NCBI RefSeq assembly: GCF_036365525.1
Contig: NC_090412.1
Span: 6,924,123 to 6,988,122, forward strand
Reading direction: 5' to 3'
Source of the DNA: Heterodontus francisci
Taxonomy: Eukaryota
DNA length: 64,000 bases
Shown here: positions 29,450-63,244 of the stretch, piece by piece
Layout of the letters: every line of letters begins with the position of its first letter
Numbering within the stretch: the first letter of the stretch is position 1
Program-made: the position numbers and the translations under genes
The notes under the pieces: generated by a model
Seen by the model: the letters and a program-made list of their open reading frames with translations, nothing else
Databases searched by the model: none
What the model was told of the DNA's origin: nothing

Positions 29450-29660
29450 CAGGTCAAAATTTATCAACAAACACCCCCAAAACAGATTATCTGGTGATTT
29501 ATCATATTGCTGTTTGTGGGATCTTGCTGTGCACACATTAGCTGCTATGTTTCCTACATTACAACAGTGCCGTGCTTCAAAAAGCACTTCATCAGTTGTG
29601 ACACCCTTTAGGATGTCCAAAGGCTGTGAAAAGCAGTATATAACCACAAGTTCTTTCTGT
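29450..29660 (+). mobile_element. SacSINE1/DeuSINE-like 3' part
   Basis: AACAGATTATCTGGTGATTTATCATATTGCTGTTTGTGGGATCTTGCTGTGC. Confidence 0.65.
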
Positions 29661-30849: not shown

Positions 30850-32069
30850 ATGATTTCCCCGGAGAGCTGCAGTTGTATTGTCTCTGCAGAGCTGCGGAGC
30901 TGCAGCGGCGGGGGCCAAGTTGCAAGAGAGGAGACGCAGTCCGGGATCCCAGCGCTGTCTCTCGCTCCTGATACTCAATGGGACGAAGCGTGGAGCTGCA
31001 GCGGGCTGCTGCTGGATGGCAAGCGGGGACTCGTTCTCTGCCACGGCCAAATCTTCTTCCCTTTCCTCCAGCAGCGAGAGCAGGATCTGCGCCGCAAGCC
31101 ATTCCTGCTGCCTGGGGCTTTCCACAAGGATCTACAGATCCATGTCCAGTTCCCTGCAGCCAACCTTAGGACCAAACCCAATCCTCCTCTGCCTTTAGCT
31201 CCCAACCATGCAGGAGCACTGGATGCTGAAGCAGAACCCCTCAATTCTGACTCGAATCCAAAGTTGCCTTCAGTAGCTCCTGGTCTGGTCAAGCTCCAGA
31301 GCTACAGCCAAGCTGAGATGCTGTTGGTCTTCCCCTGCCCAGAATTTCAAGCTATCTTCCAAACTTTATTCAACAAGTCAGACAAATGGCATTTCTACAG
31401 CGAGGACAAGGAACAGGAGCTGCGGTCTGAGCTGTTGGACTTGGTGTGGTTCGGCTTGCTCCGATGCCCGGGTTGGGCTGATGATGCCCTGGGAGGAGAA
31501 AATCTGCAATACGCGAGGAGTGAGTGTTTGAGGAAAGGACAGCCCCTGTTCAGTTGTGCTTCACCCTTTGCCTCTTTCTGCTCCGAGATCTTCATGAACA
31601 CACTCAGTAAAGGAATCGTGAGTAATCTGGCTGGGGAGCGGAACGCAATGATTTTGACAGATGCACGCTGCCTGCCAGGGACTGAAGGAGGTGGCATTTA
31701 TGTCAAGTCTCAAGATCTGTACTATTTAGTTGGTTTAATCGTGGCACCCCTTTGCTGGAAAGCCAATGAGTGGGTTGGACTGACATTGGTGTGTTCTGTG
31801 ACCTGCATATTTGAGACCGTTAGAAGGATTTTGGATGGATTTGACAAAAGCTGCAAGAAGGTGTCATTTTGCTCAGTATCTGGTCACCTGCCCCTGACTA
31901 ACCCAGGGAGGCACAGTTTAACTCGGCTGCTTACTGCAGTAGCTCTGCTGGAATGTGATAGAGTGTGGGGATCAGGGGTGATCGTTAGTCCCAGACTGAT
32001 TCTTACATGTCGACACGTGTTAGACCAAGCTTCAGCTGTCAGAGTGAAAATACAGTCTGACTCAAACAG
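30850..32069 (+). CDS. TYSND1: Peroxisomal leader peptide-processing protease TYSND1, coding exon 1 (copy 1)
   Basis: WSCSGLLLD..GLVLCHG.IF.PFL, IFMNTLSKGIVSN, LTDARCLPGTEGG, WGSGV...LTCRHV (catalytic His); donor AACAG|GTGGGA, 1220 nt, phase 2. Confidence 0.95.
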
Positions 32070-32499
32070 GTGGGAGTCTTCTATACATGTGGAATTATGG
32101 CTTTGGCACGGTGTGTTAGAACTCTTGTTACGCCTGAGCATGTAAGACAGCCTTGTACCCTATTCCAGCAATGTGTACATCATCCGAGCTCAGCAGGGTA
32201 GCATTCTCACTCTGAGTCAGGTTGTGCGTTCAAGCCCCTGTTTATGGCTTGAGCATATCAGAGTTCATTTTAAGAGTCCACACATTTGGAAAGGACCCTC
32301 AGCAATGGGGAGTACGCGTCCGAATCTGGGTGTGTGCAGCCCATAAATTCCAACCAGTAATCAGAAAATTAAGGGCAGTATGTGCTTGCATTTTTTATTG
32401 TGGGCTGTTTTTCTACAAAACAACAGTCATTATACTTCAAAGTAATTCATGAAGCACTTTGGGACAGTTCTAAAATACATGATTATTGTTATATACTTA

Positions 32500-32766
32500 C
32501 AACAATTACTTGTATTTATGTAGCGCCTTTAACATAGTAAAACGTCATAAATATAACAACACCAAGCCACATAAGGAACGACAGCTGACCAAAAGTTTTG
32601 CCAAAGAGGTAGGTTTTAAACAACATCTTAAAGGAGGAGAGGGGGGGCAGGGAGGCGGAGAGGTTTAAGGAGGGAATTCCAGACCTTAGGGCCCAGGTAG
32701 CTGAAAGCATGACTGCCAGTGGTGGAGCAGTTAAAATTGAGAATGCGCAAGAGGCCAGATTTGAAG
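32500..32766 (-). mobile_element. L2 LINE 3' end (continues about 33815-33950)
   Basis: Reverse complement of the L2 tail seen at 20325-20560. Confidence 0.6.
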
Positions 32767-33630
32767 TTTTTATTCATTCATGGGATGTGGGCGTCACTGG
32801 CTAGGCCAGCATTTATTGCCCATCCCTAATTGCCCTTGAGAAGGTGGTAGTGAGCTGCCTTCTTGAACCGCTGCAGTCCATGTAGGGTAGGTACACCCAC
32901 AGTGCTGTTAGGAAGGGAGTTCCAGGATTTTGACCCAGCGACAGTGAAGGAACGGCGATATAGTTCCTAGTCAGGATGATGTGTGACTTGGATGGAAACT
33001 TGCAGGTGGTGGTGTTCCCATGCATTTGCTGCCTTTGTCCTTCTAGTTGGTAGAGGTCACGGGTTTGGAAGGTGCTGTCTAAGGAGCCTTGGTACGTTGC
33101 TGCAGTGCATCTTGTAGATGGTACACACTGCTGCCAGTGTGCGTCGGTGGTGGAGGGAGTGAATATTTGTCGATGGGGTGACAATCAAGTGGGCTGATTT
33201 GTCCTGGATGGTATCGAGCTTCTTAAGTGTTGTTGGAACTGCACCCAATCCAGGCAAGTGGAGAGTATTCCATCACACTCCTGACTTGTGCCTTGTAGAT
33301 GGTGGACAGGCTTTGAGGAGTCAGGCGGTGAGTTACTCGCCACAGGGTTCCTAGCCTCTGACCTGCTCTTGTACCCAAGGTATTTATATGTCTACTCTAG
33401 TTCATTTCTGATCAATGGCAGCCCCCAGGATGTTGATAGTGGGGGATTCAGCAATGATAATACCATTGAATGTCAAGGGAAGATGGTTAGATTCTCTCTT
33501 GTTGGAGACGGTCATTGCCTGGCACTTGTGTGGCGCGAATGTTACTTGCCACTTATCAGCCCAAGCCTGGATATTGTTCAGGTCTTGCTGCATTTCTACA
33601 CGGACTGCTTCAGTATCTGAGGAGTCGTGC
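32767..33630 (-). mobile_element. CR1-clade LINE 3' part nested in L2
   Basis: MQQDLNNIQAWADKWQVTFAPHKCQAM (post-RT region) and the family 3' UTR. Confidence 0.8.
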
Positions 33631-34648
33631 TGTGGAGATCTTCCAATGCCGGAAGAAGTTGCAGAGATAGCGAGGGCCTTGGAGGAATTTGAAAACGGGG
33701 GTGGAAGGTTATCGGGGGTAGGTGGAAATGTGGAGTAATCAGTTCAGCTGTGAACTTATTGAATGGCGGAGCAGGCCCGAAGGGCCGAGTGGCCTACTCC
33801 TAATTCGTATGTAAAATCAAGGTGTTGCTAGACCAGGAGCCAATGTAGGTCAGCAAGCACAGGAGGGATGGGTGAATAGGACTTGGTGCAAGTTGGAAAA
33901 TATGGGCAGCAAAACTTTGGATGAGCTCAAGTTTATGGAGTCTGGAGGCCATCCCTTAAACAGCTGCAGCTAGCGTGGCACAATTTCTGTGTTGTAGTTA
34001 GTCTTTCGGAAACAAATCTTTCGCAGAGTTAGAGAAACAGGTACCACGAAGCCAGGAATGCTGACTGCTTGCTGGGTTACAGTTTCACAGGCATTGGAAT
34101 CCCTCTGGTACCTTATCCAAGTGATCATAAATAACCAGCTAATTAGTATGGAAATGGTTCAATCATATCGTTCGCTTGTCAAAAAAGCTTATAACAAAAG
34201 TTATAACAAACATGTATAAAGTTTCAAAAGTTTATAACATTATTTTTGAGGCTGATATTAAGTTTTTTTTTCCTCCTTGACGTGTTAACTCCTTTCTGGC
34301 ACTGTGTCCCAAATGGCCATCCTTCTTGTGTGAGCTTCAACAGTAAGTATAGCCAGTCCGTGTGAACAACACACTAGCGAGCCCAATCTGATCACCTTGT
34401 GCTGGTTTCTAAGTGGGCATCAGGAGCAGAACCCCTGGCCAACTCTTCCCATCCTTAATCCACCAACACTGTTGCCAATTATAGCCTCCCTACTGAGGTC
34501 AGACAACTTGGCTCAGATCAGGCTACAACCCCAGAGACTTCTGATCCTTGATTTCTCACCTTTACTGTCCTGCTAGTGATTAGACCAGTAAAGTTGGTAC
34601 AGGTTGAAAATGTGTTTTCTTTTAACTCTTCCCTGTGTTTACCTTCAG

Positions 34649-34779
34649 CTGCCTTGTGTTAAAGGGAAGAGTGTTGTTTGCTACAAAGGAGAATTCAGCC
34701 TACGATGTTGCAGTGGTGGAACTGGAAGACGACCTACCGGCTGTTGAACCACCTGCTATTGCTTCTGGGTTTAGCACAG
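34649..34779 (+). CDS. TYSND1: TYSND1 exon 2 (copy 1; catalytic Asp, YDVAVV)
   Basis: ccttcAG|CTGCC ... CACAG|GTAAGG; 131 nt; phases match exons 1 and 3. Confidence 0.93.
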
Positions 34780-36124
34780 GTAAGGAAAGGATAAGGAAGG
34801 TAAAGAGGTTTACTTAAGGAATCACAGAATTGTTACAGCACAGAAGGAAGCCATTCAGCCCTTCATGGCTGTGCTGGCTCGCCGAAAGAGCAATTTACCT
34901 AGTGCCGCACCACGCCTTCTCCCCGTAGCCCTGCACATTCTTCCTTAAATTATTAAAAATAACCTAATAGCCAGAATTTCAGAAACTATATGCTTTAGGA
35001 CCAAACATTCTATGTTCTATAAATTCACTTCTTAATTAACAATTAGCATTTATTAAGTTCTCTTAATGTAGTGAGGTTTTGATTCGTTGAGGATCTGCAA
35101 TAAGTGATTTTTTTTAAACATCTGTCTGATTATTTCCTTTTGCTTTGAGTTATGGAGTCACTGTCAATTTTTTTTTTACAAATTCTTATTTATAGATCCA
35201 GTTTTTTATGGGTCTGTGAGTGTGCTGTTGAGATAATGGATTGGAAATTAGTACAAAAATCCAGCAACTAACTCACAGGCTTGCAATTAAAATGGCAATG
35301 ATATGGAAACTGCTACATATTGGCTGAAGTACATGTAACACTCTCCCAGATGTGTACAGTGTCATGTTCCACACTGTTGACACACTTAGCTCCTGATTGT
35401 GAGACAGGGCGATCCGCTGAGTAAGTGCACCAGTGGGCCAGAGACAATGTGTATCTTAAAGCATGACATTGCATTGTAAGTAATGAGGGACAAAGGCATC
35501 CAGCAGGGTTTGATAAAATGTTATCTTCCTGTCACTGTCTGAGAACCCATTTATACAGGGGAGTGTTTGTTGTCTGTTAATAAATGTAAACTTTAACAGG
35601 GCAGATTGCAGCGTTTTTTTGTAAAAAGGCGTGGGATTGATTTGAGAGAAAGGTTCTGTGTGGTTAAAGCAGAGTTTGTGCTAAACCTACAATGCATATT
35701 TTTTCAGGGTGAGGAAGGTTGGTGTTGGGGAATGAAATGCTTTGAATATTTTTAACCCAGGGCTGTGTATAACACTGGCTAGGCAGAGATTACAGTTCAA
35801 CTTTAGTTCAAAAATGCCATTTAGAATTGCAAATCCCAACTGCAGACTCAGCATGAAAAACTGTGACTGTCTGCTGCCGGGGTAAGAGCTGGATTTAAAT
35901 ACCAGCAGCCAGGTCACGGACACCAGTCCCCCTGAATCCAAATTAAAACACGGCTGTGCAAAATGGCCTTGAGTATGGAGCCCAGCAATGTACATAATGC
36001 TAGGCTGAAATCAACACCGTTATTACATTGCGTTGCATTCCCCAGCACCTCAGCTAAGTGGGCCTCCCTCTGACAGCAGTGTTACGTAGTGTAAATTACT
36101 CGCAGAACCACAAGAATGTAAGAA

Positions 36125-36955
36125 AGAAGAAAGACTTGAATTTCTATATAACGCCTTCCACAAACTCAGGATGTCGCAAAGTGCTTTTACAGCTTTTTGA
36201 AGTGTAGTCACTGTTGAATGAAATGCGGCAGCAAGTTTGCACACAGCAATCTCCCGCAGACAGCAGTATGATAATGACCAGATCATCTGTCAAATATTGC
36301 CCAGGACAACAGGAAGAACTCATCTTAAAATAGTGCCATGGAATATTTTACATCTACAAAGCAGCCCGCTTGAACAGTACCCCATCCACCACCTTAAACA
36401 TTCACTCCCTCCATCACCGGTGCACAGTGGCATCAGTGTGTACCAGCTACAAGATGCACTGCAGCAACTCACCAAGCCTCCTTTGACAGCACCTTCCAAA
36501 CCCGTGACCTCTACCACTTAGAAGGACAAGGGCAGCGGACGCATGGGAACACCACCACCTGCAAGTTCCCCTCCTTGCCACACACCATCCTGACTTGTCG
36601 TTATATATTGTCGTTCCTTCACTGTCGCTGGGTCAAAATCCTGGAACTCCCTCCCTAACAGCACTGTGGGTGTACCCACCCCTCACGGACTGCAGCGGTT
36701 CAAGAAGGCAGCTCACCACCACCTTCGCAAGGCCAGTTAGGGATGGGCAACAAATGCTGGCCTGGCCAGTGAGGTCCACATCCCATGAAAGAATAAAAAA
36801 AAACCTGAGAGGCATCAGTTTAGGGCAGCACCTACGACAGTGCAGCCCTCCCTCAGTACCTTTGATTTTTGTGCTCAAGTCCTGGAATGGGACTTAAACC
36901 CACAACTTTCTCACTCAGGAGGTGAGAGTGCTACCCACTGAGGCACAGCTGACAA
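36125..36955. mobile_element. DeuSINE-like SINE (- strand) split by a + strand CR1-clade 3' end (about 36360-36805)
   Basis: SINE halves at 36125-36355 and 36806-36955; the insert is the reverse complement family of 32767-33200. Confidence 0.65.
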
Positions 36956-37734
36956 CTAATGTAGGTTTAATTTCTGGGTTAAAGTTGCCTGTCAGAATAG
37001 AGAAAACATGGCAAAGCCAGCTTAGCTGGTTGCTCTCTCAGTCTCTGTGATAATGGGGAAGGGCCGTATACATTGTGAGACCAGCTCCCAGCGTGGACTG
37101 TGAAGAGTGGGACAACAATGACTGAGTTTGCTGACCTGGAACAGGTACTTAGAAGCTCAAAAATAAACCCACCTGATAACCAGTCATGTGCTGCATGCTG
37201 AGATCAGGCTGCTTCAGTTTCCTTGCATCTGTTAGGAAGGGGATTTTCTTCCTGTCATCCCATGTGGGATGCTGTTGTTTGCTGATAGCACTGTCACCTT
37301 CCGAAGGTTGTTAGTTCAAATCCCACTCCAGGACTTGAGCACAAATTTGTGATTAACTCCAGGGCAGCAGCTGAGGGAGTGCTGCACTGTTGCTGGTGCT
37401 GATGTTTTAACGAGGTGCCCTAATTAACACCAAAAACAGGTAAACTGCTTGTTTATCGTGCTTCTTTGCATGGGATCCTGCTGTGTTCATATGGGCTGCT
37501 TTTGGTTCTTGTACACGTTTCAAACAACTTCACTGCGTGTGAAGTGTTTTGAGATTTTTTTTAACGATGAAGCACTGTATGAACGCAAAGCTCTCCTTTC
37601 GCTAGATACTATCTCGCTAAGCAAGCTCTGTCTATTGTATGAATGGGAAATAATGTTACACAATGAGATAATACTTGGGTTAAAGGTAATTAGACTGGCG
37701 GAAGATGGGATCTGGTGTTTCTGTTTACATAAAC

Positions 37735-39465
37735 GATTAGGATTTGGGAATCAAAAGTACAATTTCAAAATTTGCAGATGACACCAAATTGGGGGACATG
37801 TGGGGGAGGGGGGGAGGTATAGTTAAAACTGAAGAAGAATGCGACAAAATACAAAACAACGTTAATAAACTTGTGGAATAAGTTTGTAAATGGTAAATTA
37901 ATTTCAATATAGATAAGTGTGAGGTGATACATTTTGGTAGGAGTAAGGAGATCACGTACTCCTTGGGGAAACAAGAATATAAATGGGGCAGAGGAACAAA
38001 GGATCACAGCATCACAGAATAATACAGTGCAGAAGAGGCCCATCGAGTCTGCACCGATGCATTAAAGACACCTGACCTGTCTACCTAATCCCATTTGCCA
38101 GCACTTGGCCCATTGCCTTGAATGTTATGACGTGCTAAGTGCTCATCCAGGTACTTTTTAAAGGATGTGAGGCAACCTGCCTCTACCACCCTCCCAGGCA
38201 GGGCATTCCAGACCGTCACCACCCTCTGGGTAAAAAAGTTCTTCCTCAAATCCCCCTTAAACCTCCCGCCCCTCACCTTAAACTTGTGACCCCTCGTAAC
38301 TGACCCTTCAACTAAGGGGAACAGCTGCTTCCTATCCACCCTGTCCATGCCCCTCATAATCTTGTACACCTCGATCAGGTCACCCCTCAGTCTTCTCTGC
38401 TCCAGCGAAAACAACCCAAGCCTATCCAACCTCTCTTCATAGCTTAAATGTTCCATCCCAGGTAATAGGACACATTTAGAAATCTTTTAACAGTAATACT
38501 GCAGGTTAACAAGGCCATAAAAAAGGGCAAACCATACTCCGGGATCCTTTCTAGAGGAACAGAATTTAAAAAGTAGAGAAATTATGTTAAACTTGTACCG
38601 AACTTTGGTTAGAGCATGCTTAATTCTGGTCTCCATATTATAAAAAAGGATATAGATGAACTGGAGAAGGCGCAGAAATAATTTACAAGGATGATATCAG
38701 AGCTGTGAGTTTATAACTACCAGGAAAAATTAAACAGACTGGTGGTTATCAGATAGTCTGCCTAAGATTTAATTCCATTGACTGCAGTGACTCTGAATAT
38801 CAGCCCCTGCTTAGAACTGGCGGCTGTGCTGATACCGTCCGTTTCACTCCACCGGCCGAGACACATTTCTAGCCTTGAGGTTCTTTTCTCTGGAAAAGAG
38901 AAGGCTGAGGGGGTGACCAAACAAAGGTCTTTAAAATTATGTGAGGGGGGTTGATCTGGTCGCTGTCGGGGAGCTGTTTCCACTTGTGGGTAAAATCCAA
39001 AAGTAGCTGAGGGAGTGCTGCACGGTCTGAGGTGCCAGTATTTGGATGAAATGTTAAACCGAGTTTTGTCTACCTGTTCTACTGGTTCAAGTAGAATCAA
39101 AGATCCCACGGCATTTTTTAACTAAAATGTCAACAAAATGTCAAATGGTCCATAGCGTCAGTACGTGCAGCGCCAGTATAATTTTCAGGAAGTCCACTGC
39201 ATTTTTATTACTGTCCGAGCTCCTGTCATAAGTATAAGATAGTCACTAATAAATCCAATAAAAAATTCAGCAGAAACTTGCTACCACAGGGGGTGGTTGA
39301 GGTGACTAGTGTAGATGCATTTAAGGGGAGGCTAGATAAGCATATGATGGAAAAAGGAATAAAGGGTTATGCTGATTGGGTGTGGTAAAGCAGGGTGGGA
39401 GGATTCATGTGGAGTATGAACCAGTTGGGCTGAATGGCCTGTTTTTGTACTATGAATTCAATGCA
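37735..39465 (+). mobile_element. Old CR1 RT/3' fragment interrupted by several insertions
   Basis: ISKFADDTKLGG at about 37760-37795, continuing after 38464 to a CR1 3' UTR near 39460. Confidence 0.7.
38003..38462 (-). mobile_element. Young 5'-truncated CR1 nested in older CR1
   Basis: MEHLSYEERLDRLGLFSLEQRRLRGDLIEVYK...FFTQRVVTVWNALP. Confidence 0.9.
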
Positions 39466-39500
39466 ATGCCTTCAGTGAAGATGTGTCTCTTTGCCAACAG

Positions 39501-39686
39501 GAGAGGATGTCTGTGTCATTGGCTACGGGGTGTTTGGCCACACCTGTGGGCCGTCAGTGACAGCTGGGATTCTATCTGCTGTCATCACTGTGGACAACCA
39601 GCCTGTGATGCTGCAGACAACCTGTGGAGTTCACGCTGGGGCCAGTGGTGGGCCTGTCATCAGAACAAGCAATGGAGAGTTGCTGG
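39501..39686 (+). CDS. TYSND1: TYSND1 exon 3 (copy 1; catalytic Ser, GASGGP)
   Basis: caacAG|GAGAGG ... CTGG|GTAGGT; 186 nt; GEDVCVIGYGVFG...MLQTTCGVHAGASGGPV. Confidence 0.96.
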
Positions 39687-39817
39687 GTAGGTTGGATGTC
39701 ATCGCCTAATGGTCGGAGTTTGTAGAGGACACCTTTGAATGAACTATTTGAAGCAGAACGCAAGTGTTTTTCCCGGTGTCTTGCCCAATATTTATTCCTC
39801 AATCAACATCATTTAAA

Positions 39818-39858
39818 AAAGTTCTGAAGAAGGGTCACTGACCTGAAACGTTAACTTT
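39818..39858 (+). ncRNA. Putative minimal type I hammerhead ribozyme
   Basis: Stem I AAAGTT/AACTTT, core CTGAAGA(+A), stem II GGGTC/GACCT, GAAAC-GTT with palindromic AACGTT. Confidence 0.6.
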
Positions 39859-39956
39859 GCTTCTCTCTCTAGAGATGCTGCCAGACCTGCTGAGTACTTC
39901 CAGCGTTTCTTGTTTTTATTTCAGATTTCCAGCATCCGCAGTATTTTGCTTTTATT
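39818..39956 (+). mobile_element. Penelope-like terminal fragment nested in a DeuSINE-like SINE (about 39760-40100)
   Basis: Same family as 18715-18850; SINE sequence CCTCAATCAACATCA...AGATTATCT is split around it. Confidence 0.65.
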
Positions 39957-40277
39957 AAAAAAAGATTATCTATTCATTGCTGTTTGTGGGATCTTGCTGT
40001 GTGCAAATTGGCTGCTGCATTTCCTACATTACAACAGTGTCCACACTTCCGAAGTACTTCCTTGGCTGTAAAGTGCTGAGGTTGTGTCAGTCTTTTATTT
40101 TTTCTTAAGTAGTTAATGCCAGGTTACCCCCTAGTTCTGCAGTACCACCATTCTCCTCCTTGCCTCCCGTGTTGGAAGTTTTTGCTGTTTTTGTGCTAAT
40201 GGCATCTTTAACATTTCTGCTTCATTTAAATGTAGAAGCATCGTTCAGTGTCAAACTTATGTCATCTTTCCATACAG

Positions 40278-40495
40278 GGATTGTATCCAGCAATGCCCGA
40301 AACAACAGTGCAGGAGCCACCTATCCCCACCTAAACTTCAGCCTTCCTATCACAGTGCTGCAGCCTCTGCTTTCTGCCTACAACCAGACGAGGGACGTTG
40401 GGGTTTTTGAGGGCCTAAACAAAGCCAGCGATCGACTGCGTGCACTTTGGAGACTCCAGGGCAGCTTCTCATCCTCTCCAAAGAGCAAACTGTAA
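40278..40495 (+). CDS. TYSND1: TYSND1 exon 4 (copy 1; ends in PTS1 SKL)
   Basis: atacAG|GGATTG ... AAACTGTAA; 218 nt; GIVSSNARNNSAGATYPHLNFSLP...PKSKL*; exons sum to 1755 nt = 584 aa; AATAAA at 40896 and 41003. Confidence 0.96.
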
Positions 40496-41344
40496 CTGAG
40501 AGGTCACGGAGGATTTAGGTTTGACCTCTCGTTGTAGGTCCCAGAAACTGTTGGGAGATTAATTCAATAGAGTTGAAAATGACAGGAGTTCACTGGCTCC
40601 TTTATATAATGATCTGGAATATACTTGAACTCAATATTCATAGATACCCTGATCTAAGTTAAACAGGTCCCTAAATCTTAAATCTAAGAAACAGAGGAAT
40701 AATTACAAGGCAGTATTCTCATCCTCGATGCTAGGATGATGATTATAAACTGCTTGCACTTTGTGTTCTTGGTGTTCAGTGTGACTTGAATCTTTCAAAA
40801 AGATTGTTGCTTGGGCTCTGAATATTTTGCATAAAATGCTGCCATCTAGCTCTGTTGAGAGCAATCTACCATTGTAACTTTGGCTGGCATAACGAAATAA
40901 AACATTCCTTCTAATCACATGACAGTGAGCATAATCCCAGTTATATCAGGAATTACAGAAGATTGTGAACCTCTAACAATCTGATTAAAACAAGTGAAAC
41001 TGAATAAATGTCACCAAATAGTTTTCTGTCCATATGTCCTGGCTTCCTATAACTCTTTCAGGAGGTGATAGATATGGTTGATGGGGGAAATGCAGTGGAT
41101 GTGGTGCACGAAGCCTCAGAAAGCCTTTGACAAGGTATCACACAATGGAGAAAATTAAGGTGTATGGAGGGTAGCAAATTAGATTGAAAGCTAGTCAGTA
41201 GGGAACCAATCTTGAACCAATCCAATAGGAAGGATCAGCCATGGCTACCATCATAATTGGAAGCAGGTTGCCTGCTGCGTGATAGAAACTTACCACCACA
41301 GAAGGAGGCCATTCAACCCATCTTGCCTGTGCTGGCTTGGCACA

Positions 41345-41790
41345 GCTGATGGTGTTCTTATCTCTGAATCAGGTGTTTGGTTCACACCATCGACTTGAGC
41401 ACATATCCAGGCTGGCACTCCAAAGCAATGCTGAGGGAGTGCTGCACTGTCTCAAATGCCAGTATTTGGATGAAATGTTAAACTGAGGTTTGTCTACCTG
41501 TTCTACTGGCTGAAGTGGAAATCAAAGACCCCACGGCATTTTTTTAACAAGAGCAGGTAATTTGCCTGCTGATCCAGACAACAAAATGTCATGTGGTCTA
41601 TAGCATCGGTACGTGCAGCACCAGTATAATTTTCAGGTAGTCCACTGTATTTTTATTACTGTCCGAGCTCCCAGCTGTATTATTCCTTCCTCAACTGAGC
41701 ACCATCATGGCTGCTCACCTCATTGTTACTGGGGCATCTTATAATGGCTATACTTCAAAAATGTTATTGCACGTTGAGGTGTTTATAAGC
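41345..41790 (+). mobile_element. Degenerate DeuSINE-like SINE with an internal non-SINE insert
   Basis: GACTTGAGCACAT...GCTGAGGGAGTGCTGCACTGTC...GATGAAATGTTAAAC. Confidence 0.55.
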
Positions 41791-41809
41791 TTTCAAGCTT
41801 CCAAGAGAT

Positions 41810-42270
41810 TCCTGGGATGAGGGAATTGTCGTATTAGGAGAGTTTGAGTAGACCACATCCATATTCCCTGGAACTTAGAAGAATGAGAGGTGATCTCATT
41901 GAAACATCTTAAAATTCTTAAAGGACTTGACCGGGTAGATGCTGGGAGGCCGTTTTCCCTGTCCGGGGAGTCTAGAGCTAGGCGGGGTCACAGTCTCAGA
42001 TTAAGGGGTTGTCCGTTTAGGATTGAGATGAGGAGAAATGTCTTCATTCAGAGGGTTGTGTATCTTTGGAATTCTCTACCTCAGAGAGCTGCGTATGTTC
42101 AGTCATTCAATATATTCAAGATGGTGATCAATAGATTTTTGGATACTAAGGCAATTAAGGGATATGGGGATAGTGTGGGAAAATGGAATTAGAAGATCAA
42201 CCATGATCTTATTGAATGATTGAGCAGGCTCAATGGGCCAAATGGCCTCCTTGGCTCCTGTTTCTTATGT
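41810..42270 (+). mobile_element. CR1 3' fragment
   Basis: ORF KILKGLDRVDAGR.F...RRNVFIQRVVYLWNSLP plus 3' UTR. Confidence 0.85.
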
Positions 42271-43880
42271 GAAGTGTTCTGAGACATGGTGCTAAATAAC
42301 TTAAGTTTTCTTGCAGCTTGAGATAAACTAAGGGGAAAATAATCTACTCTTGATTCAAAGTTGCTCAATTCAAATTATTGGATACTTCCATTTATTTGGC
42401 ATTAAGAAAACAACTTTGAATTACTTGGAACAGAAGTAATTCCTCTATCAATACCTTTGGATCTTAGCCAGAAGTTGGATTTGGTGTTCACTTTATTTTT
42501 GAAATGTTTCAAAGAAATTCAGTGTCCCAAAAACCCTGCCATATAGTCCCAATGGGTGATCAGTAAATGTGCCAGCCAATGTGATACTGCCCTATACATG
42601 GTACAAGACCCTAGATTCAGTCCACCAATTCGCTAGATTACCACCAACATTTGGCCACAACCCCACAGGCTATGGTCAAACTGCTGATGATGTCTTGTCT
42701 GTATCATTTGGTGATTTAGCAGGCACTGCCTTCCCCCACTGTCAGGGAAGTTTCTCATTTGGGTATTAGCAGAACACTGTTTTAGAACAGCTGGTTCCTT
42801 CTTAACAGAAAGTTTAGCATACATTACCTATCCACAGAAACCATATTGTCAGGAGACCCAAACTAACCAATTAGATGATCCCTAGACTCACAACAGCAAC
42901 AACGTTTGGACCAATGATTCACTTCCTATCTTTGATAAGATGGCATATGGTCTATGCAGCCAACATACGCAGCATAATTTTCAAGGCACTATTCAAACTA
43001 TCCAAGCTCCTAGCTGTATTATTTATCTGCCTGAAGTTCCACAATTGTGGGAAATATTGGATAGAATATTCAAGGAGCAGCAAAAGGTGATTGTAATTTC
43101 ACTAATTTGGTTGTACCTATGCTGTGGTCATTAGGAGCCCAACTATTCATACTTTTTTCAATGTTCTTTTCCTTTGCCCTCTTCAACCACACCCACATGG
43201 CCATTATTGAGCCTGGACAACATACATTCATATAGCACTGTTAACATAGTAAAACAGTCCAAGGCACTTCACAGGAGCAATCAGTTTGACACTGAGCCAC
43301 ATAAGGAGATATCAGGAGGGGTGACCAACAGCTTGGTCAATGAATGCAACTGGGCTAGGGACTTATTGATGAGCTAGATGCCATGACCACCCTATGTACA
43401 TTTTGCAGTAGAGGGTGTAGTCGCTAGGAGTGGGTACAGTGACTGATTTCCTTTCCTTACCTCAGAGCTACAATCACAGTAACCTCCACACACATCAATA
43501 CTACTCACTGCATGCAATGTAGCCTCTTGCTAAACTGCTTGGGATTGTTTTACAAAAATTGTTTTTATGGAAGTTCCCATAAACTTGAGTTTTATTTGTT
43601 TTTATATTAACATGACTTTGTTCTAAGAGACTGGGTTGGCCTGGTGCAGGTTTATGAATAATCCACACAACTATTTCAAGTTAACGACCTGGGAAAAAAT
43701 GCAATATCTTCATAAAAATCAAACAGCTGTTCTCAGTGAAAAGTTAAAGGAGGTACTGGTACAATTCTCTGGAGAGAAGTGTCTTGAGCTCACTTGAACA
43801 ATATTTTACTTGATGCCTTAGCCCTTCTACAGAAAATCTTTCCCTACACAGTGGTTTCTAGGTGGCTATAGTTTCTGGTG

Positions 43881-44053
43881 GTACTTTTCAATTGTGCTGG
43901 TTTGAGGGTAAACTACAGCCCATCCCCTTTCCATATCTACTGTATACTGTTCTTAAATCAGATACTGTACTTTTCAATTGTGCTGGTTTGAGGGTAAACT
44001 ACAGCCCATCCCCTTTCCATATCTACTGTATACTGTTCTTAAATCAGATACTG
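43881..44053 (+). repeat. Perfect 86-bp tandem duplication
   Basis: 43881-43966 is identical to 43967-44052 (GTACTTTTCAATTG...AAATCAGATACT). Confidence 0.95.
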
Positions 44054-44117
44054 GCCAGCACTGAAGGCAACAAACCCACTAACAGTTCCCAAGAACCACC
44101 AGAGACTGGGTCTACAT

Positions 44118-44340
44118 AACTTGCATTTATATAGTACCTTTAATGTTGTAAAATATCCTAAGGTGCTTCACAGGAGATTGATCAAACACAAATTAACACT
44201 GAGCCAAATGAGACATTAGGGTATGTGACCCACAGCTTGGCCACAGAGATTTAAGGAGGGCTTTAAAAGTATGAAATGGAGGCAGAGGAGTTTAGGGAAG
44301 GAACTGCAGAGCTTGTGGCCTAGATGGCTGAAGAACTAAA
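44118..44340 (-). mobile_element. L2 LINE 3' end
   Basis: AACTTGCATTTATATAGTACCTTTAATG...GCCTAGATGGCTGAAG; same family as 32500-32766. Confidence 0.6.
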
Positions 44341-45212
44341 CTAGAAGCTAGGTCAGGCAGTTTATATTTAAGGGAAGGCATCAGCAAAAGAACTGTAGAC
44401 AAGCCAACAACTGTAGATTTACTTTATGCTGCTCAGTTTAATCAGCATCAGACTCTACCCATTACTTTTTGGGGGATTTTCAACTCAAGCAATTGGTCTG
44501 AACTGTTGGAGCAGTTTCACACAACAGCCATTATCCAGCACCTCAGAGGGCATTCTTAATCTGGGCATCTAAACAATTTGCAGCCTCTAACATTGGCAAG
44601 TATCACAGCAAATCCATTCCTACCCAGATTAATGGCTCCCAAACTGCAATCAGCTAACTCAGTTTAGACCTTAAAACATGAACTCAATTTTAACTGTTGG
44701 GTTGGGGGATGGTGTGTTTGTGATGGTAGTTGAGGGAGAGTGCCAGTCCAAGGGTCCAGAGTGGTGGTTCGTGGGAACTGTTGATTTTTGTGAGCCTCAA
44801 TTACTTATTCCAGACCAACTCCTGTCAGAACCTGAGGAATTCAAGTGGCTTGTCATTGAGGTCCTGCAAGAAGGATCCCTTGCACAAGATGTCAATTGAC
44901 AAACTCTGGAATCCCCATTAAGGAATATTGGGGCTGGAGATGGTTTAAAAAAAAGCCTAGGGCAGGCCCAGTCTGAGATTACCTTGTGGGGCTCAGAACA
45001 TTCCCGCTCCTATCACACAACCAAATTTGCCTCGGTTTGTGACAAGCTTGGCCTTCTGGCAATCCAACACTTAAATCATCTGCTCAGGGCTTAAGTGTCA
45101 TCAATGCCTGCAATTTTAGATTGCACGTTCCATTAGTACCCAAACCTCGTCAGCCAGATTGGAGCTGGAAAAGAATGGGGATGTCTCACTCTTGTATTTC
45201 TGCTAGGCTTGT

Positions 45213-48200
45213 GGGGGGGGGGGGGAGGAGGAGGAGAAGGGGGGGGGGGAGGAGGAGAAGGGGGGGGGGGGAGGAGAAGGGGGGGGGGGGAGGAGAAGGG
45301 GGGGGGGGAGGAGAAGGGGGGGGGGGAGGAGAAGGGGGGGGGGGGGAGGAGAAGGGGGGGGGGGAGGAGAAGGGGGGGGGGAGGAGAAGGGGGGGGGGGA
45401 GGAGAAGGGGGGGGGGAGGAGAAGGGGGGGGGAGGAGAAGGGGGGGGGAGGAGAAGGGGGGGGGAGGAAGGGGGGGGGAGGAAGGGGGGGGGGAGGAGAA
45501 GGGGGGGGGAGGAGAAGGGGGGGGGGGAGGAGAAGGGGGGGGGGAGGAGAAGGGGGGGAGGAGAAGGGGGGGGAGGAGAAGGGGGGGAGGAGAAGGGGGG
45601 GGAGGAGAAGGGGGGGAGAAGAAGGGGGGGGAGAAGAAGGGGGGGGAGAAGAAGGGGGGGGAGAAGAAGGGGGGGGAGAAGAAGGGGGGGAGAAGAAGGG
45701 GGGGGAGAAGAAGGGGGGGGAGAAGAAGGGGGGGGAGAAGAAGGGGGGGGAGAAGAAGGGGGGGGAGAAGAAGGGGGGGGAGAAGAAGGGGGGGGAGAAG
45801 AAGGGGGGGGAGAAGAAGGGGGGGAGAAGAAGGGGGGGAGAAGAAGGGGGGGAGAAGAAGGGGGGGAGAAGAAGGGGGGGGAGAAGAAGGGGGGGAGAAG
45901 AAGGGGGGGGAGAAGAAGGGGGGGGAGAAGAAGGGGGGGGAGAAGAAGGGGGGGGAGAAGAAGGGGGGGGAGAAGAAGGGGGGGGAGAAGAAGGGGGGGG
46001 AGAAGAAGGGGGGGGAGAAGAAGGGGGGGGAGAAGAAGGGGGGGGAGAAGAAGGGGGGGAGAAGAAGGGGGGGAGAAGAAGGGGGGGGAGAAGAAGGGGG
46101 GGGGAGAAGAAGGGGGGGGAGAAGAAGGGGGGGGGAGAAGAAGGGGGGGGAGAAGAAGGGGGGGGGAGAAGAAGGGGGGGGGAGAAGAAGGGGGGGGAGA
46201 AGAAGGGGGGGGGAGAAGAAGGGGGGGAGAGAAGGGGGGGGGAGAAGAAGGGGGGGGAGAAGAAGGGGGGGGGAGAAGAAGGGGGGGGAGAAGAAGGGGG
46301 GGGGAGAAGAAGGGGGGGGGAGAAGAAGGGGGGGGGAGAAGAAGGGGGGGGAGAAGAAGGGGGGGGGAGAAGAAGGGGGGGGAGAAGAAGGGGGGGGAGA
46401 AGAAGGGGGGGGAGAAGAAGGGGGGGGAGAAGAAGGGGGGGGAGAAGAAGGGGGGGGGAGAAGAAGGGGGGGGAGAAGAAGGGGGGGGGAGAAGAAGGGG
46501 GGGGGAGAAGAAGGGGGGGGAGAAGAAGGGGGGGGGAGAAGAAGGGGGGGGGAGAAGAAGGGGGGGGGAGAGAAGGGGGGGGGAGAAGAAGGGGGGGGGA
46601 GAAGAAGGGGGGGGAGAAGAAGGGGGGGGGAGAGAAGAAGGGGGGGGGAGAAGAAGGGGGGGGGAGAAGAAGGGGGGGGGAGAAGAAGGGGGGGGGAGAA
46701 GAAGGGGGGGGAGAAGAAGGGGGGGGGAGAAGAAGAGGGGGGGGAGAAGAAGGGGGGGGAGAAGAAGGGGGGGGGAGAAGAAGGGGGGGGGAGAAGAAGG
46801 GGGGGGAGAGAAGAAGGGTGGGGGGAGAAGAAGGGGGGGGAGAAGAAGGGGGGGGAGAAGAAGGGGGGGGGAGAAGAAGGGGGGGGGAGAGAAGAGGGGG
46901 GGGAGAAGAAGGGGGGGAGGAGAAGAAGGGGGGGGAGAGAAGAAGGGGGGGGAGAAGAAGGGGGGGGGAGAAGAAGGGGGGGGAGAAGAAGGGGGGGGGA
47001 GAAGAAGGGGGGGGGAGAAGAAGGGGGGGGGAGAAGAAGGGGGGGGAGAAGAAGGGGGGGGGAGAAGAAGGGGGGGGGAGAAGAAGGGGGGGGGAGAAGA
47101 AGGGGGGGGGAGAAGAAGGGGGGGGGAGAAGAAGGGGGGGGAGAAGAAGGGGGGGGGAGAAGAAGGGGGGGGAGAAGAAGGGGGGGGGAGAGAAGAAGGG
47201 GGGGGAGAAGAAGGGAGAGAGGGGGGGAGAAGAAGGGGGGGGAGAAGAAGAGGGGGGGGAGAGAAGAAGGGGGGGGAGAGAAGAAGGGGGGGGGAGAAGA
47301 AGGGGGGGGGAGAAGAAGGGGGGGGAGAAGAAGGGGGGGGGAGAAGAAGGGGGGGGGAGAAGAAGGGGGGGGGAGAAGAAGGGGGGGGGGAGAAGAAGGG
47401 GGGGGAGAAGAAGGGGGGGGGAGAAGAAGGGGGGGGAGAAGAAGGGGGGGGGAGAAGAAGGGGGGGGAGAAGAAGGGGGGGGAGAAGAAGGGGGGGGGAG
47501 AAGAAGGGGGGGGGAGAAGAAGGGGGGGGGAGAAGAAGGGGGGGGAGAAGAAGGGGGGGGGAGAAGAAGGGGGGGGGAGAAGAAGGGGGGGGGAGAAGCA
47601 GGGGGGGGGAGAAGAAGGGGGGGGAGAAGAAGGGGGGGGGAGAAGAAGGGGGGGGGAGAAGAAGGGGGGGGGAGAAGAAGGGGGGGGGAGAAGAAGGGGG
47701 GGGGAGAAGAAGGGGGGGGGAGAAGAAGGGGGGGGAAGAAGAAGGGGGGGGGAGAAGAAGGGGGGGGGAGAAGAAGGGGGGGGGAGAAGAAGGGGGGGGA
47801 GAAGAAGGGGGGGGGAGAAGAAGGGGGGGGGAGAAGAAGGGGGGGGAGAAGAAGGGGGGGAGGGAGAAGAAGGGGGGGGAGAAGAAGGGGGGGGAGAAGA
47901 AGGGGGGGGGAGAAGAAGGGGGGGGGAGAAGAAGGGGGGGGGAGAAGAAGGGGGGGGGAGAAGAGGGGGGGGGAGAAGAAGGGGGGGGAGAAGAAGGGGG
48001 GGGAGAAGAAGGAGGGGGGGAGAAGAAGGGGGGGGAGAAGAAGGGGGGGGGAGAAGAAGGGGGGGGAGAAGAAGGGGGGGGAGAAGAAGGGGGGGGAGAA
48101 GAAGGGGGGGGGAGAAGAAGGGGGGGAGAGAAGGGGGGAGAAGAAGGGGGGGAGAAGAAGGGAGGGGGGAGAAGAAGGGGGGGGAGAAGAAGGGGGGGGG

Positions 48201-50208
48201 AGAAGAAGGGGGGGGGAGAAGAAGGGGGGGGGAGAAGAAGGGGGGGGAGAAGAAGGGGGGGGGAGAAGAAGGGGGGGGAGAAGAAGGGGGGGGGAGAAGA
48301 AGGGGGGGGAGAAGAAGGGGGGGGAGAAGAAGGGGGGGGAGAAGAAGGGGGGGGGAGAAGAAGGGGGGGGGAGAAGAAGGGGGGGGAGAAGAAGGGGGGG
48401 GAGAAGAAGGGGGGGGGAGAAGAAGGGGGGGGAGAAGAAGGGGGGGGGAGAAGAAGGGGGGGGAAGAAGAAGGGGGGGGGAGAAGAAGGGGGGGGAGAAG
48501 AAGGGGGGGGAGAAGAAGGGGGGGGAGAAGAAGGGGGGGGGAGAAGAAGGGGGGGGGAGAAGAAGGGGGGGGGAGAAGAAGGGGGGGGAGAAGAAGGGGG
48601 GGGGAGAAGAAGGGGGGGGGAGAAGAAGGGGGGGGGAGAAGAAGGGGGGGGAGAAGAAGGGGGGGGAGAAGAAGGGGGGGGAGAAGAAAGGGGGGGGAGA
48701 AGAAGGGGAGAGAAGAAGGGGGGGGAGAAGAAGGGGGAGAAGGGGGGAGAAGAAGGGGGGGGAGAGAAGAAGGGGGGGGAGAAGAAGGGGGGGGAGAAGA
48801 AGGGGGGGGGAGAAGAAGGGGGGGGGAGAAGAAGGGGGGGGGAGAAGAAGGGGGGGGAGAAGAAGGGGGGGGAGAAGAAGGGGGGGGGAGAAGAAGGGGG
48901 GGGAGAAGAAGGGGGGGGGAGAAGAAGGGGGGGGGAGAGAAGGGGGGGGGAGAAGAAGGGGGGGGGAGAAGAAGGGGGGGGGAGAAGAAGGGGGGGGGAG
49001 AAGAAGGGGGGGGAGAAGAAGGGGGGGGAGAAGAAGGGGGGGGAGAAGAAGGGGGAGAAGAAGGGGGGGGAGAAGAAGGGGGGGGAGAAGAAGGGGGGGG
49101 AGAAGAAGGGGGGGGAGAAGAAGGGGGGGGAGAAGAAGGGGGGGGAGAAGAAGGGGGGGGGAGAAGAAGGGGGGGGAGAAGAAGGGGGGGGAGAAGAAGG
49201 GGGGGGGGAGAAGAAGGGGGGGGGAGAGAAGGGGGGGGAGAAGAAGGGGGGGGAGAAGAAGGGGGGGGGAGAAGAAGGGGGGGGGAGAAGAAGGGGGGGG
49301 GAGAAGAAGGGGGGGGAGAAGAAGGGGGGGAGAAGAAGGGGGGGGGAGAAGAAGGGGGGGGGAGAAGAAGGGGGGGGGAGAAGAAGGGGGGGAGAGAAGA
49401 AGGGGGGGGAGAAGAAGGGGGGGGAGAAGAAGGGGGGGGGAGAAGAAGGGGGGGGGAGAAGAAGGGGGGGGGAGAAGAAGGGGGGGGGAGAAGAAGGGGG
49501 GGGAGAAGAAGGGGGGGGGAGAAGAAGGGGGGGGAGAAGAAGGGGGGGGGAGAAGAAGGGGGGGGAGAAGAAGGGGGGGGAGAAGAAGGGGGGGGAGAAG
49601 AAGGGGGGGGAGAAGAAGGGGGGGGGAGAAAGAAGGGGGGGGGAGAAGAAGGGGGGGGAGAAGAAGGGGGGGGAGAAGAAGGGGGGGGGAGAAGAAGGGG
49701 GGGGGAGAAGAAGGGGGGGGAGAAGAAGGGGGGGGGAGAAGAAGGGGGGGGGAGAAGAAGGGGGGGAGAAGAAGGGGGGGGGAGAAGAAGGGGGGGGGAG
49801 AAGAAGGGGGGGGAGAAGAAGGGGGGGGAGAAGAAGGGGGGGGGAGAAGAAGGGGGGGGAGAAGAAGGGGGGGGAGAAGAAGGGGGGGGAGAAGAAGGGG
49901 GGGGAGAAGAAGGGGGGGAGAAGAAGGGGGGGAGAAGAAGGGGGGGAGAAGAAGGGGGGGGAGAAGAAGGGGGGGAGAAGACGGGGGGAGAAGAAGGGTG
50001 GGAGAAGAAGGGGGGGAGAAGAAGGGGGGGGAGAAGAAGGGGGGGGAGAAGAAGGGGGGAGAAGAAGGGGGGGGGAGAGAAGGGGGGGGAGAAGAAGGGG
50101 GGGGAGAAGAAGGGGGGGGAGAAGAAGGGGGGGGAGGGAGAAGAAGGGGGGGAGAAGAAGGGGAGAAGAAGGGGGGGAGAAGAAGGGGGGGGAGAAGGGG
50201 GGAAGGAG
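45213..50208 (+). repeat. About 5 kb polypurine tandem array, unit approximately G(6-10)AGAAGAA (about 15 bp)
   Basis: Directly visible; only four pyrimidines seen (46819, 47599, 49982, 49999). Confidence 0.98.
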
Positions 50209-50808
50209 TAAAGGTACAGAGAAGAGTGAATTTTAAAACTCTACCTACTTAACCTCACGACTTAGTGCTATCAACCTATTAAGTAATTGGAGACCTTGAT
50301 TTTTCGGGTGTGATTCTTAGAATAAAACCTGTACAAAGTAAAGGGTCTCTCCCAGTATGAAGGTATCCCAGCTGACTAGTCCTGCCATCACAACTTAATC
50401 CCTGAAGCAGGACCTCAGTCCCAAAGAGTCAACCTGAAACAGACTCTCCAAATACTGCCAGACCTACTGAGTATTTCCAAAATTGCCTTTTTAAAAACTG
50501 TTAAACAGCTCACTTGAAAGATCAGATCCTCTAATGCAAGATCAGCCCATAGTGTTCGGAGGCTTGGCCTCAACAGTATCCAGCCCAAACTCTACAAACA
50601 GCTCAAGCCCTTGGGGATGTCATCTACCTAACAGCATCCATCCCAATAATACAATTCTGGGATTATTTTGCAAAATATAGAATATCCTACATAAACTTCC
50701 CAGCAAAGAGATGGGGAACACATCACATTCCATTCCTTGTCACCACAGAGGCATGCACCAGGTTAAATTTACATGACCCATTTCAGCCAATGCTCAGACC
50801 CTCTGGTA

Positions 50809-50821
50809 NNNNNNNNNNNNN
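50809..50821. other. Assembly gap of 13 N
   Basis: Run of 13 n; the sequence after it restarts in the middle of the CR1 at the position equivalent to 27550. Confidence 0.99.
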
Positions 50822-63105: not shown

Positions 63106-63244
63106 AAAGTTCTGAAGAAGGGTCACCGACCTGAAACGTTAACTCTGCTTCTCTCTCCACAGATGCTGCCAGACCTGCTGAGTACTTCCAGCGTTTCTTG
63201 TTTTTATTTCAGATTTCCAGCATCCGCAGTATTTTGCTTTTATT
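63106..63244 (+). mobile_element. Penelope-like fragment with hammerhead core (copy of 39818-39956)
   Basis: CTGAAGA-A-GGGTC-ACC-GACCT-GAAAC-GTT-AACTCTG. Confidence 0.65.

What the first reader, a model, noticed from the sequence alone, without database searches (positions are those of the whole stretch)
39818..39858. Complete minimal hammerhead ribozyme motif in the sense strand of TYSND1 intron 3
Seen: stem I AAAGUU (39818-23)/AACUUU (39853-58), core CUGAAGA (39824-30) plus one extra A, stem II GGGUC/GACCU with a 3-nt loop, then GAAAC-GUU with a palindromic AACGUU and predicted cleavage after 39852. Established: Penelope-like elements carry minimal type I hammerheads with vestigial palindromic stem III that cleave mainly as dimers. 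Inference: a short ribozyme-bearing retroelement family is dispersed in this genome (also 18715, 63106 and a decayed relative near 50400-50490). This copy is transcribed within a 591-nt intron, where cleavage could compete with splicing of the PTS1-encoding last exon. I consider this the best candidate for overlooked biology here.
Basis: partly seen in the sequence, partly recalled or inferred. Interest (0 to 1): 0.7.

Follow-up and report, generated by a model that had tools for sequence, protein, structure and literature searches.

The report
Penelope transposon fragment in shark intron
This hammerhead-shaped motif is the front end of a 137-base piece of a Penelope-type jumping gene, one of about 90,000 such motifs in this shark genome, and it is likely an inactive passenger rather than a regulator, because it lacks the partner copy it would need in order to cut and the intron around it is seen spliced out.

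Summary
The motif is present letter for letter. It is the 5' end of a 137-bp insert (39820-39956) matching the pLTR of a Neptune/Nematis-type Penelope-like element (PLE; RT plus GIY-YIG, 3.3-kb tandems). The genome holds 91,788 matches to a minimal-hammerhead pattern (control 1,918). Hammerheads in PLE pLTRs are published.

Corrections: the 63106 copy is probably the other haplotype (duplicate behind a 13-N gap). The 6-bp stem I is private to one allele; the family has 4 bp. Stems covary between subfamilies and families, so the fold was likely kept in the parent elements.

Copies start at the first base of stem I, 29 nt behind a TATAA, and hardly ever at the predicted cut, so they were likely copied from uncut RNA. 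The youngest subfamily carries a U4C core change.

Regulation of TYSND1 is not supported: one copy per pre-mRNA, no stem III, intron spliced in 4 of 4 runs (one sample). Two runs also hold a contig entering the intron; this is unexplained. The scan noted this family before, in this and other genomes.

The parts
39820..39956 (+). 137-bp fragment of a Penelope-like element pLTR, from the first base of stem I (likely transcription start) to the distal 3' end (likely RT start site)
   Evidence: 93-97% identical to the best 40 genomic copies; same ends in those copies; matches the pLTR of ORF-bearing elements L034 and L078; 5 differences from the majority of 28 copies
39818..39858 (+). Minimal type I hammerhead motif: stem I, CUGAAGA, extra A, 5-bp stem II closed by G.U, GAAA, palindromic ACGU (39848-51), U17 at 39852; predicted cut 39852/39853
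   Evidence: sequence; fold; fits the published consensus NNN CUGANGAH GNNNNN..NNNNNC GAAAN palindrome NUH NNN except for G.U closing
39813..39820 (+). Left copy of the target-site duplication TTAAAAAA; supplies the outer A's of the 6-bp stem I
   Evidence: 15 of 30 copies share 8 or more bases between flanks; 12 of 756 mismatched flank pairs do
39955..39962 (+). Right copy of the target-site duplication; with the element end it forms ATTAAA (39954-59), a possible intronic polyadenylation signal
   Evidence: use of the signal not shown
39501..39686 (+). TYSND1 exon 3 (GASGG protease motif)
39687..40277 (+). TYSND1 intron 3, 591 nt, GT..AG
   Evidence: joint 39685/40277 (cut +1) in 4 of 4 runs, one sample
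40278..40495 (+). Coding part of the last TYSND1 exon, ending in SKL (PTS1)
63108..63244 (+). Same insertion in the duplicated stretch, probably the second allele; 4-bp stem I, loop ACC; predicted not to fold as a hammerhead
50809..50821 (.). 13-N gap followed by a repeat of 27550-47030; likely an allelic overlap left by optical-map scaffolding
   Evidence: signature described in PMC7649008
18707..18847 (+). Independent copy of the same subfamily, 4-nt insertion in stem I, about 12 kb upstream of TYSND1 exon 1
50444..50492 (+). Decayed relative (82% over about 50 bases), hammerhead core not intact

Best explanation
The motif is the first 41 bases of a 137-bp piece of a Penelope-like retrotransposon's terminal repeat that inserted, with a target-site duplication, into TYSND1 intron 3, where it is likely a catalytically idle passenger. 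How it arose. Shown: the parent pLTR has TATAA at -29 and an initiator-like TCAGTT/CCAGTT whose A is the first base of stem I; genomic copies pile up at that base at their 5' end and at two sites about 35 nt apart at their 3' end. Inferred: transcription starts at that A. The element's RT starts internally about 100 or 137 nt into the RNA and, when it uses the first pLTR of the transcript, copies only to the capped 5' end, giving strong-stop-like short insertions made from uncut RNA. Why it is likely idle here. Shown: no stem III as a monomer, G.U closing pair, one copy in the pre-mRNA, no promoter of its own. From the literature: such motifs do not cut as monomers and cut weakly as dimers or with the element's protein. 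Inferred: the fold is kept by selection in the mobile parents, not at this site.
For: Parent elements: pLTR-ORF-pLTR with a 3,235-bp period in the same CUGA subfamily (L034). About 60 of 150 scored RT matches (counted by eye) lie in 924-aa open frames, some in 3.3-kb tandems. The protein has RVT_1 (E 6e-6) and GIY-YIG (E 0.002), both under Pfam cut-offs, plus YIDD and a CX4CXXC linker. Abundance: 91,788 vs 1,918 control; 29 hits in 594 kb taken at fixed round positions, about 3e5 genome-wide. Ends: in that sample 6 of 22 copies start at -31 to -33 from the cut and 1 of 22 at the cut; 7 of 22 end at +60 to +72 and 12 of 22 at +98 to +107. 19 of 28 distinct core-bearing copies without native upstream DNA start at the A or G of AGUU, and 9 of these 19 have a G before it (p 0.013 against 22% G). 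Only 451 places look like starts at the cut, and 25 of the first 30 are fold-backs or still carry the core upstream. TATAA at -29 in both subfamilies. Internal RT start, 30-40-nt tail, uncut RNA as main substrate and no cleavage without protein are reported for the anole PLE (PMC11167929); no monomer cleavage and low dimer cleavage in PMC4209133. Intron spliced in 4 of 4 runs. The second allele has pairing probabilities of 0.1 or less for both stems.
Against: In this allele stems I and II are predicted to form better than in the parents (pair probabilities 0.8-1.0, about 0.2 and 0.6-0.9 with 20, 60 and 130 nt of flank), and the core is intact. Two of the four runs hold a contig that reads from exon 3 into the intron and stops at 39856 or 39849, within 4 nt of the predicted cut. 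A repeat boundary would stop a contig there too, so this cannot be resolved. The transcription start is inferred from motifs and copy ends only, and the G excess rests on 19 copies. No cleavage assay was possible.
Confidence: 0.85

Rival explanations
1. The intronic copy cuts TYSND1 pre-mRNA, most plausibly in trans by pairing its ACGU with a hammerhead on an abundant PLE-derived RNA or with help from the PLE protein. This would compete with splicing and remove the PTS1 exon in some tissues.
For: Intact core, and a 6-bp stem I in this allele that favours the fold. A contig entering the intron ends within 4 nt of the predicted cut in 2 of 4 runs. Thousands of short contigs of the family are present in all four runs. 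Protein-assisted cleavage is reported for the anole element.
Against: No second copy inside the gene. The active dimer scores 2-4 kcal/mol worse than two monomers and 8-12 worse than mis-paired dimers in a nearest-neighbour model that ignores core contacts. The intron-entering contig of X1 carries the 39759 letter of the allele predicted not to fold, and that of X2 the other allele's letter, so it does not track the foldable allele (contigs may merge alleles). Genomic copies show little trace of cut RNA. Cleavage inside an intron need not block splicing (own knowledge).
Confidence: 0.05
2. The insertion does affect TYSND1 transcripts, but not as a ribozyme. Its U-rich 3' end and the target-site duplication create ATTAAA followed by a GU-rich tract (intronic polyadenylation), or its pyrimidine/AG tracts weaken splicing, giving a minor RNA that reads into intron 3 (frame ends GELLGRLDVIA-stop, no SKL).
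For: ATTAAA at 39954 is the only AATAAA/ATTAAA in the intron. Intron-entering contigs in 2 of 4 runs.
Against: No joint to a cryptic site among the 15 of 21 joints shown. Three of 120 database TYSND1 proteins (a frog, a newt, a gecko; P0030, P0069, P0073) also leave the normal frame right after GELL, so divergence at this junction is annotated in other vertebrates too; I did not check their introns.
Confidence: 0.08
3. The short copies are a self-propagating non-autonomous family (SINE or retrozyme) transcribed on their own and processed by the hammerhead.
For: Uniform length and target-site duplications; retrozymes derived from pLTRs are reported in vertebrates, including one cartilaginous fish (bioRxiv 10.64898/2026.07.22.740005).
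Against: Copies lack the upstream TATA promoter, share the subfamily letters and both 3' ends of ORF-bearing elements, and grade into longer 5'-truncated copies. Ends do not fall at the cut. No tandem arrays of the short unit were noticed in the loci printed; this was not searched for genome-wide.
Confidence: 0.03

Closest known systems
Minimal hammerheads (min-HHR) in pLTRs of metazoan Penelope-like elements (Cervera and De la Pena 2014, PMC4209133; read parts 1-2 of 4 of the main text, part 2 of 3 of supplementary file 2 and search passages; file 1 not searchable)
   Same: CUGANGA core, unpaired base before stem II, short stem I, GAAA-CGU-U end (GUU triplet is common in their table), location in pLTRs, mostly solitary copies
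   Different: About 90,000 pattern matches here against about 4,000 (coelacanth) and 9,000 (Xenopus) there, with different descriptors. No 'shark', 'Callorhinchus' or 'Leucoraja' hit in the supplements searched. The youngest subfamily here has CCGA (U4C), not seen in the part of their table I read.
Poseidon element PAc of Anolis carolinensis (Frangieh et al. 2024, PMC11167929; read parts 1-2 of 4)
   Same: Tandem pLTR-ORF units, hammerhead at the pLTR/ORF junction, two 3' ends 30-40 nt apart, ATT-rich targets, uncut RNA as template
   Different: Here the protein has the CX2-5CxxC linker that Penelope/Poseidon lack, and the first ATG of the long frame lies about 140 nt behind the cut rather than inside the ribozyme
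Neptune/Nematis clades of endonuclease-positive PLEs (Craig et al. 2021, PMC8557442; passages)
   Same: RT, Zn-finger-like linker, C-terminal GIY-YIG with CCHH, partial tandems, inverted 5'-truncated copies, tail
   Different: Clade not placed by a tree here; no microsatellite targeting noticed in the flanks printed
Conserved intronic hammerheads of amniotes, e.g. RECK (review PMC6155905; passages)
   Same: Type I hammerhead in the sense strand of an intron, proposed to affect mRNA biogenesis
   Different: Those are canonical ribozymes conserved across species. This is one of about 1e5 copies, minimal, and differs between the two alleles.
U4C hammerhead variant of a viroid (Ambros and Flores 1998; not held, seen only as cited in PMC3088659 passages)
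   Same: Same core change as in the youngest subfamily here; reported to lower activity in vitro yet permit infectivity
   Different: Concerns the family's young lineage, not the TYSND1 copy, which has CUGA

Membership tests
min-HHR of metazoan PLEs | Core CUGANGA ... GAAA ... NUH | tested here: met
   39824-30, 39845-48, GUU 39850-52; consensus
min-HHR of metazoan PLEs | Unpaired base between position 9 and 10.1; stem II paired from 10.1-11.1 | tested here: met
   A39831; G.U closing pair, as in several published examples; A-U 8,300, G.U 13,042, G-C 40,246, A.C 373 across subfamilies
min-HHR of metazoan PLEs | Palindromic vestigial stem III, short stem I | tested here: met
   ACGU 39848-51; stem I 4 bp in the family, 6 bp in this allele
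min-HHR of metazoan PLEs | Located in the pLTR of an RT/GIY-YIG element | tested here: met
   L034, L078
min-HHR of metazoan PLEs | Self-cleavage as dimer or with protein | not testable with these tools
   needs an in vitro assay
EN+ PLE, Neptune/Nematis type (parent element) | Single ORF with RT and C-terminal GIY-YIG with CCHH | tested here: met
   916-aa frame; RVT_1 E 6e-6, GIY-YIG E 0.002 (below Pfam cut-offs); YIDD, YCIRCSQCGLLYIG, FAEH
EN+ PLE, Neptune/Nematis type (parent element) | CX2-5CxxC linker between RT and EN | tested here: met
   CNRRRCNTC at residue 782; feature from PMC8557442
EN+ PLE, Neptune/Nematis type (parent element) | Tandem pLTR structure, inverted truncated copies, 30-40-bp tail | tested here: met
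EN+ PLE, Neptune/Nematis type (parent element) | Placement in an RT tree (Neptune versus Nematis) | not tested
   no reference RTs were fetched
Canonical monomer-active type I hammerhead | Stable stem III with loop; match to a curated model | tested here: not met
   no stem III in the folds; no Rfam hammerhead hit at E<=5
Domesticated intronic hammerheads | Conservation at the orthologous intron across species | not testable with these tools
   no relatives of this genome are held; the two alleles already differ at 4 places in the insert, 2 of them in the motif
Non-LTR retrozymes | Tandem arrays of short non-coding units cut to unit length by the hammerhead | tested here: not met
   copies are solitary or inverted pairs and their ends are not at the cut

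The most novel reading that the evidence does not exclude
Half-ribozymes scattered in sense orientation through tens of thousands of shark introns, this TYSND1 allele among them, are completed in trans by RNA (and protein) of the still-active Penelope family, so that transposon expression cuts host pre-mRNAs; at TYSND1 this would yield a protease RNA without its peroxisomal-targeting exon.
Probability: 0.05. Interest if true: 0.75.

Novelty: new member of a known kind. Interest (0 to 1): 0.25.

Why it matters
For TYSND1 it most likely does not matter: this is one of about 1e5 similar fragments. The family is more useful than the locus. It gives a very large natural record for the open question of what PLE hammerheads are for. 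The motif appears to be the first bases of the transcript, copies come almost entirely from uncut RNA, and the most abundant young lineage (40,246 exact matches) spread with a U4C core change while restoring G-C at the stem II closing pair. That makes cleavage rate versus transposition success testable across four natural subfamily variants. If trans cleavage of intronic copies were real, it would be a new way for a transposon to act on host pre-mRNA.

Tried and rejected
Rfam scan of the window: no hammerhead family. Folding z-scores give no support by themselves (-0.80 to +1.51).

CpG decay of the young CCGA/G-C form as the source of this copy's CUGA/G.U was rejected: the mirror-image double decay is 4 of the first 100 of 1,514 places, against 13,042 CUGA/G.U matches, and the subfamily has its own linked letters.

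No RNA holder listed: no run is on record as RNA; X1-X4 are guessed RNA, one sample, contigs only. Contig depths were X1 exon 3 161.7, spliced 87.2, intron-entering 50.2, distal intron 3.8; X2 32.5, 23.8, 8.6. They cannot rank parts of a gene and are not used as evidence. No contig covers the insert's right junction (63251-63268 in the duplicate); the tool filters records, so the hole proves nothing, and intronic polyadenylation could be neither seen nor excluded.

A search for other hammerhead families with longer stem II gave no excess over control (4,719 vs 4,783), though it listed one real second family. The recurrent CTGAAGACACATGAAC type in that list has no stem II and was dropped.

Shorter 'isoform X2' TYSND1 proteins of four other sharks and rays (P0004, P0005, P0010, P0013) keep the last exon and lack GASGG, so they are not intron-3 read-through forms.

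The Pfam family tried for PLEs is not in the library. The protein atlas was unavailable. Ambros and Flores 1998 and Lunse et al. (dimer cleavage of PLE hammerheads) are not held and are cited second-hand.

Full report
Observation. The host gene is TYSND1: the exon-1 frame is 100% identical to a protein named peroxisomal leader peptide-processing protease-like of Heterodontus francisci, with other sharks and rays next, and exon 3 plus the last exon translate to a frame ending SKL. The 591-nt GT..AG intron 39687-40277 is skipped in contigs of 4 of 4 laid runs, all of one sample and guessed to be RNA. Rfam has no hammerhead match in the window. The 41-mer folds into stems I and II, but no better than shuffles (z -0.80). 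The case for a real motif rests on the family, not on folding energy.

The family. The motif is the 5' end of a 137-bp insert, 39820-39956. The 40 best genomic matches are 93-97% identical and share its ends. 15 of 30 share 8 or more bases between their flanks, against 12 of 756 mismatched pairs; for this copy the duplication is TTAAAAAA. A 35-nt pattern has 9,603 exact matches and its reversed control 0. A minimal-hammerhead pattern has 91,788 against 1,918. Sixty stretches at fixed round positions (594 kb) gave 29 hits to the part behind the ribozyme, about 3e5 genome-wide, some being two halves of one event. At that density a 591-nt intron holds a copy about 3% of the time and a 10-kb gene about 0.5 copies.

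The parent. Two same-strand matches 3,235 bp apart flank a decayed RT/endonuclease ORF (L034). A search with its RT piece had 32,764 candidates; about 60 of the 150 scored (counted by eye) lie in 924-aa open frames, some in tandems of 3,290-3,301 bp. The 916-aa protein has RVT_1 (E 6e-6) and GIY-YIG (E 0.002), both below Pfam's cut-offs, and DKG, YIDD, a CX4CXXC linker and the endonuclease's C and H motifs. By the features in Craig et al. (PMC8557442, passages) this is a Neptune/Nematis-type PLE; I did not build a tree.

The stretch 27550-47030 recurs at 50822-70507 directly behind a 13-N gap. BiSCoT (PMC7649008, passages) describes this as the mark of unmerged, usually allelic, overlaps. So 63106 is probably the second allele. 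It has the family's C at the place of T39857, so its stem I is AGUU/AACU; the 6-bp stem of the finding is made of flank A's plus a private change. With 20, 60 and 130 nt of flank, stem pair probabilities are 0.8-1.0, about 0.2 and 0.6-0.9 for the 39818 allele, and 0.1 or less for the other. The 18715 copy has four extra bases in stem I; 50400-50490 has lost the core.

Is the fold under selection? In the parents, likely. The stem II closing pair is A-U in 8,300 matches, G.U in 13,042, G-C in 40,246 and A.C in 373 (the patterns differ at core position 4, and these are copies, not independent events). Position 7 and the loop vary freely in the listings. A second, distant PLE (29% protein identity) has the same core with other stems, UUCCC/GGGAA and GCUG/CAGC. 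On 14 hand-picked sequences of the 76 distinct ones, 8 of 9 pairs show changes on both sides and 0 of 500 shuffles reach the score. Seven of those eight rest on the two sequences of the second family, one of which is truncated at the cut, and the core is invariant by selection. The young, ORF-intact subfamily has CCGA; U4C is reported to lower activity in vitro yet permit viroid infectivity (PMC3088659, passages). This copy's CUGA/G.U form is a real source subfamily and not CpG decay of the young one.

How the short copies arise. In the fixed-position sample 6 of 22 copies start 31-33 nt before the predicted cut and 1 of 22 at it; 7 of 22 end at +60 to +72 and 12 of 22 at +98 to +107. Of 107 core-bearing hits in loci L031-L203 (overlapping loci not merged; L001-L030 left out as biased to A-rich flanks), 74 have native upstream DNA. 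Of 28 distinct others, 19 start at the A or G of AGUU, 9 of them after a G (p 0.013). The parent has TATAA at -29 from that A in both subfamilies, a C-rich box at about -45 to -51 and an initiator-like TCAGTT/CCAGTT (consensus names recalled). Only 451 places look like starts at the cut; of the first 30, 18 are inverted fold-backs, 7 keep the core upstream and 5 are other, one of which is a deletion by eye. Frangieh et al. (PMC11167929, parts 1-2 of 4) show for an anole PLE two internal RT start sites that define the tail, uncut RNA as main substrate, cleavage only with protein, and no RNA-seq ends at the cut. I infer that the hammerhead is the start of the transcript and that the short copies are strong-stop-like cDNAs of uncut RNA. 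I noted this before opening the scan's notes, which agree; they are not independent support.

The TYSND1 claim. Minimal PLE hammerheads showed no monomer cleavage and low dimer cleavage (PMC4209133; review PMC6765202, passages). The gene holds one copy, so only a trans dimer is possible. In a nearest-neighbour model the active dimer is 2-4 kcal/mol worse than two monomers, a weak argument because core contacts are not modelled. Against my reading: runs X1 and X2 also hold a contig from exon 3 into the intron that ends at 39856 and 39849, close to the predicted cut. This is also where locus-specific words give way to the repeat. At 39759 the two contigs carry different alleles' letters. Three of 120 database TYSND1 proteins from a frog, a newt and a gecko also leave the frame at this junction. 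Cleavage, polyadenylation at ATTAAA 39954 and plain retention cannot be told apart with contigs.

Novelty. PLE minimal hammerheads are known. Four searches showed, in listings and the passages read, no report of shark min-HHR numbers, of U4C in a PLE, or of a start site at stem I. The library lacks most subscription journals, two key papers were not held, supplementary file 1 of PMC4209133 could not be searched, and I did not see the supplements of the 2026 preprint (passages and part 2 of 5 read; it includes one cartilaginous fish). The scan has 702 notes with these words in at least 36 genomes and 76 in this genome; none near this window. Verdict: new member of a known kind; locus ordinary; family of moderate use. 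Interest 0.25.

Noticed in passing
window 27550-47030 and 50822-64000 (continues in L031): TYSND1 appears twice: a 99.6%-identical repeat starting right after a 13-N gap at 50809, probably a false (allelic) duplication of the assembly.
   Followed up: partly
window 45264-50197: 4.9-kb pure-purine minisatellite, unit GGGGGGGGAGAAGAA, about 320 copies; a similar array lies at the end of the duplicate in L031. Possible G-quadruplex or triplex former and likely cause of the contig break.
   Followed up: no
L078, L059-L092; genome-wide: The youngest PLE subfamily, with many intact ORFs, has the U4C core CCGAAGA with a G-C closing pair (40,246 exact matches).
   Followed up: partly
L095-L103 (G000 C1, 72-223 kb): A second, distant PLE family with a different minimal hammerhead (GUC triplet) inside an 18-kb tandem array; in L095-L101 the pLTR sequence stops exactly at the predicted cut and joins a truncated ORF at ATT. 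One event, amplified.
   Followed up: partly
L204-L233: Many insertions are hairpins in which the copy that reached the 5' end folds back through the stem I complement (18 of 30 inverted).
   Followed up: partly
window 39860-39930: The element carries pyrimidine-tract/AG motifs like splice acceptors (CACAG/ATG in the family, changed in this allele; TTTCAG/ATT at about 39924); no use seen among the joints shown.
   Followed up: partly
window 39800-39815 and 39963-40070: The PLE fragment sits inside an older common repeat; other copies of that repeat join 39811 to 39974 with about 15 other letters, which shows the empty site.
   Followed up: no
proteins P0004, P0005, P0010, P0013, P0020: Annotated 'isoform X2' TYSND1 proteins of several sharks, a ray and a turtle lack the GASGG motif but keep SKL, as exon-3 skipping would give; possibly a conserved inactive isoform.
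   Followed up: no
window 43881-44053: Perfect 86-bp tandem duplication.
   Followed up: no
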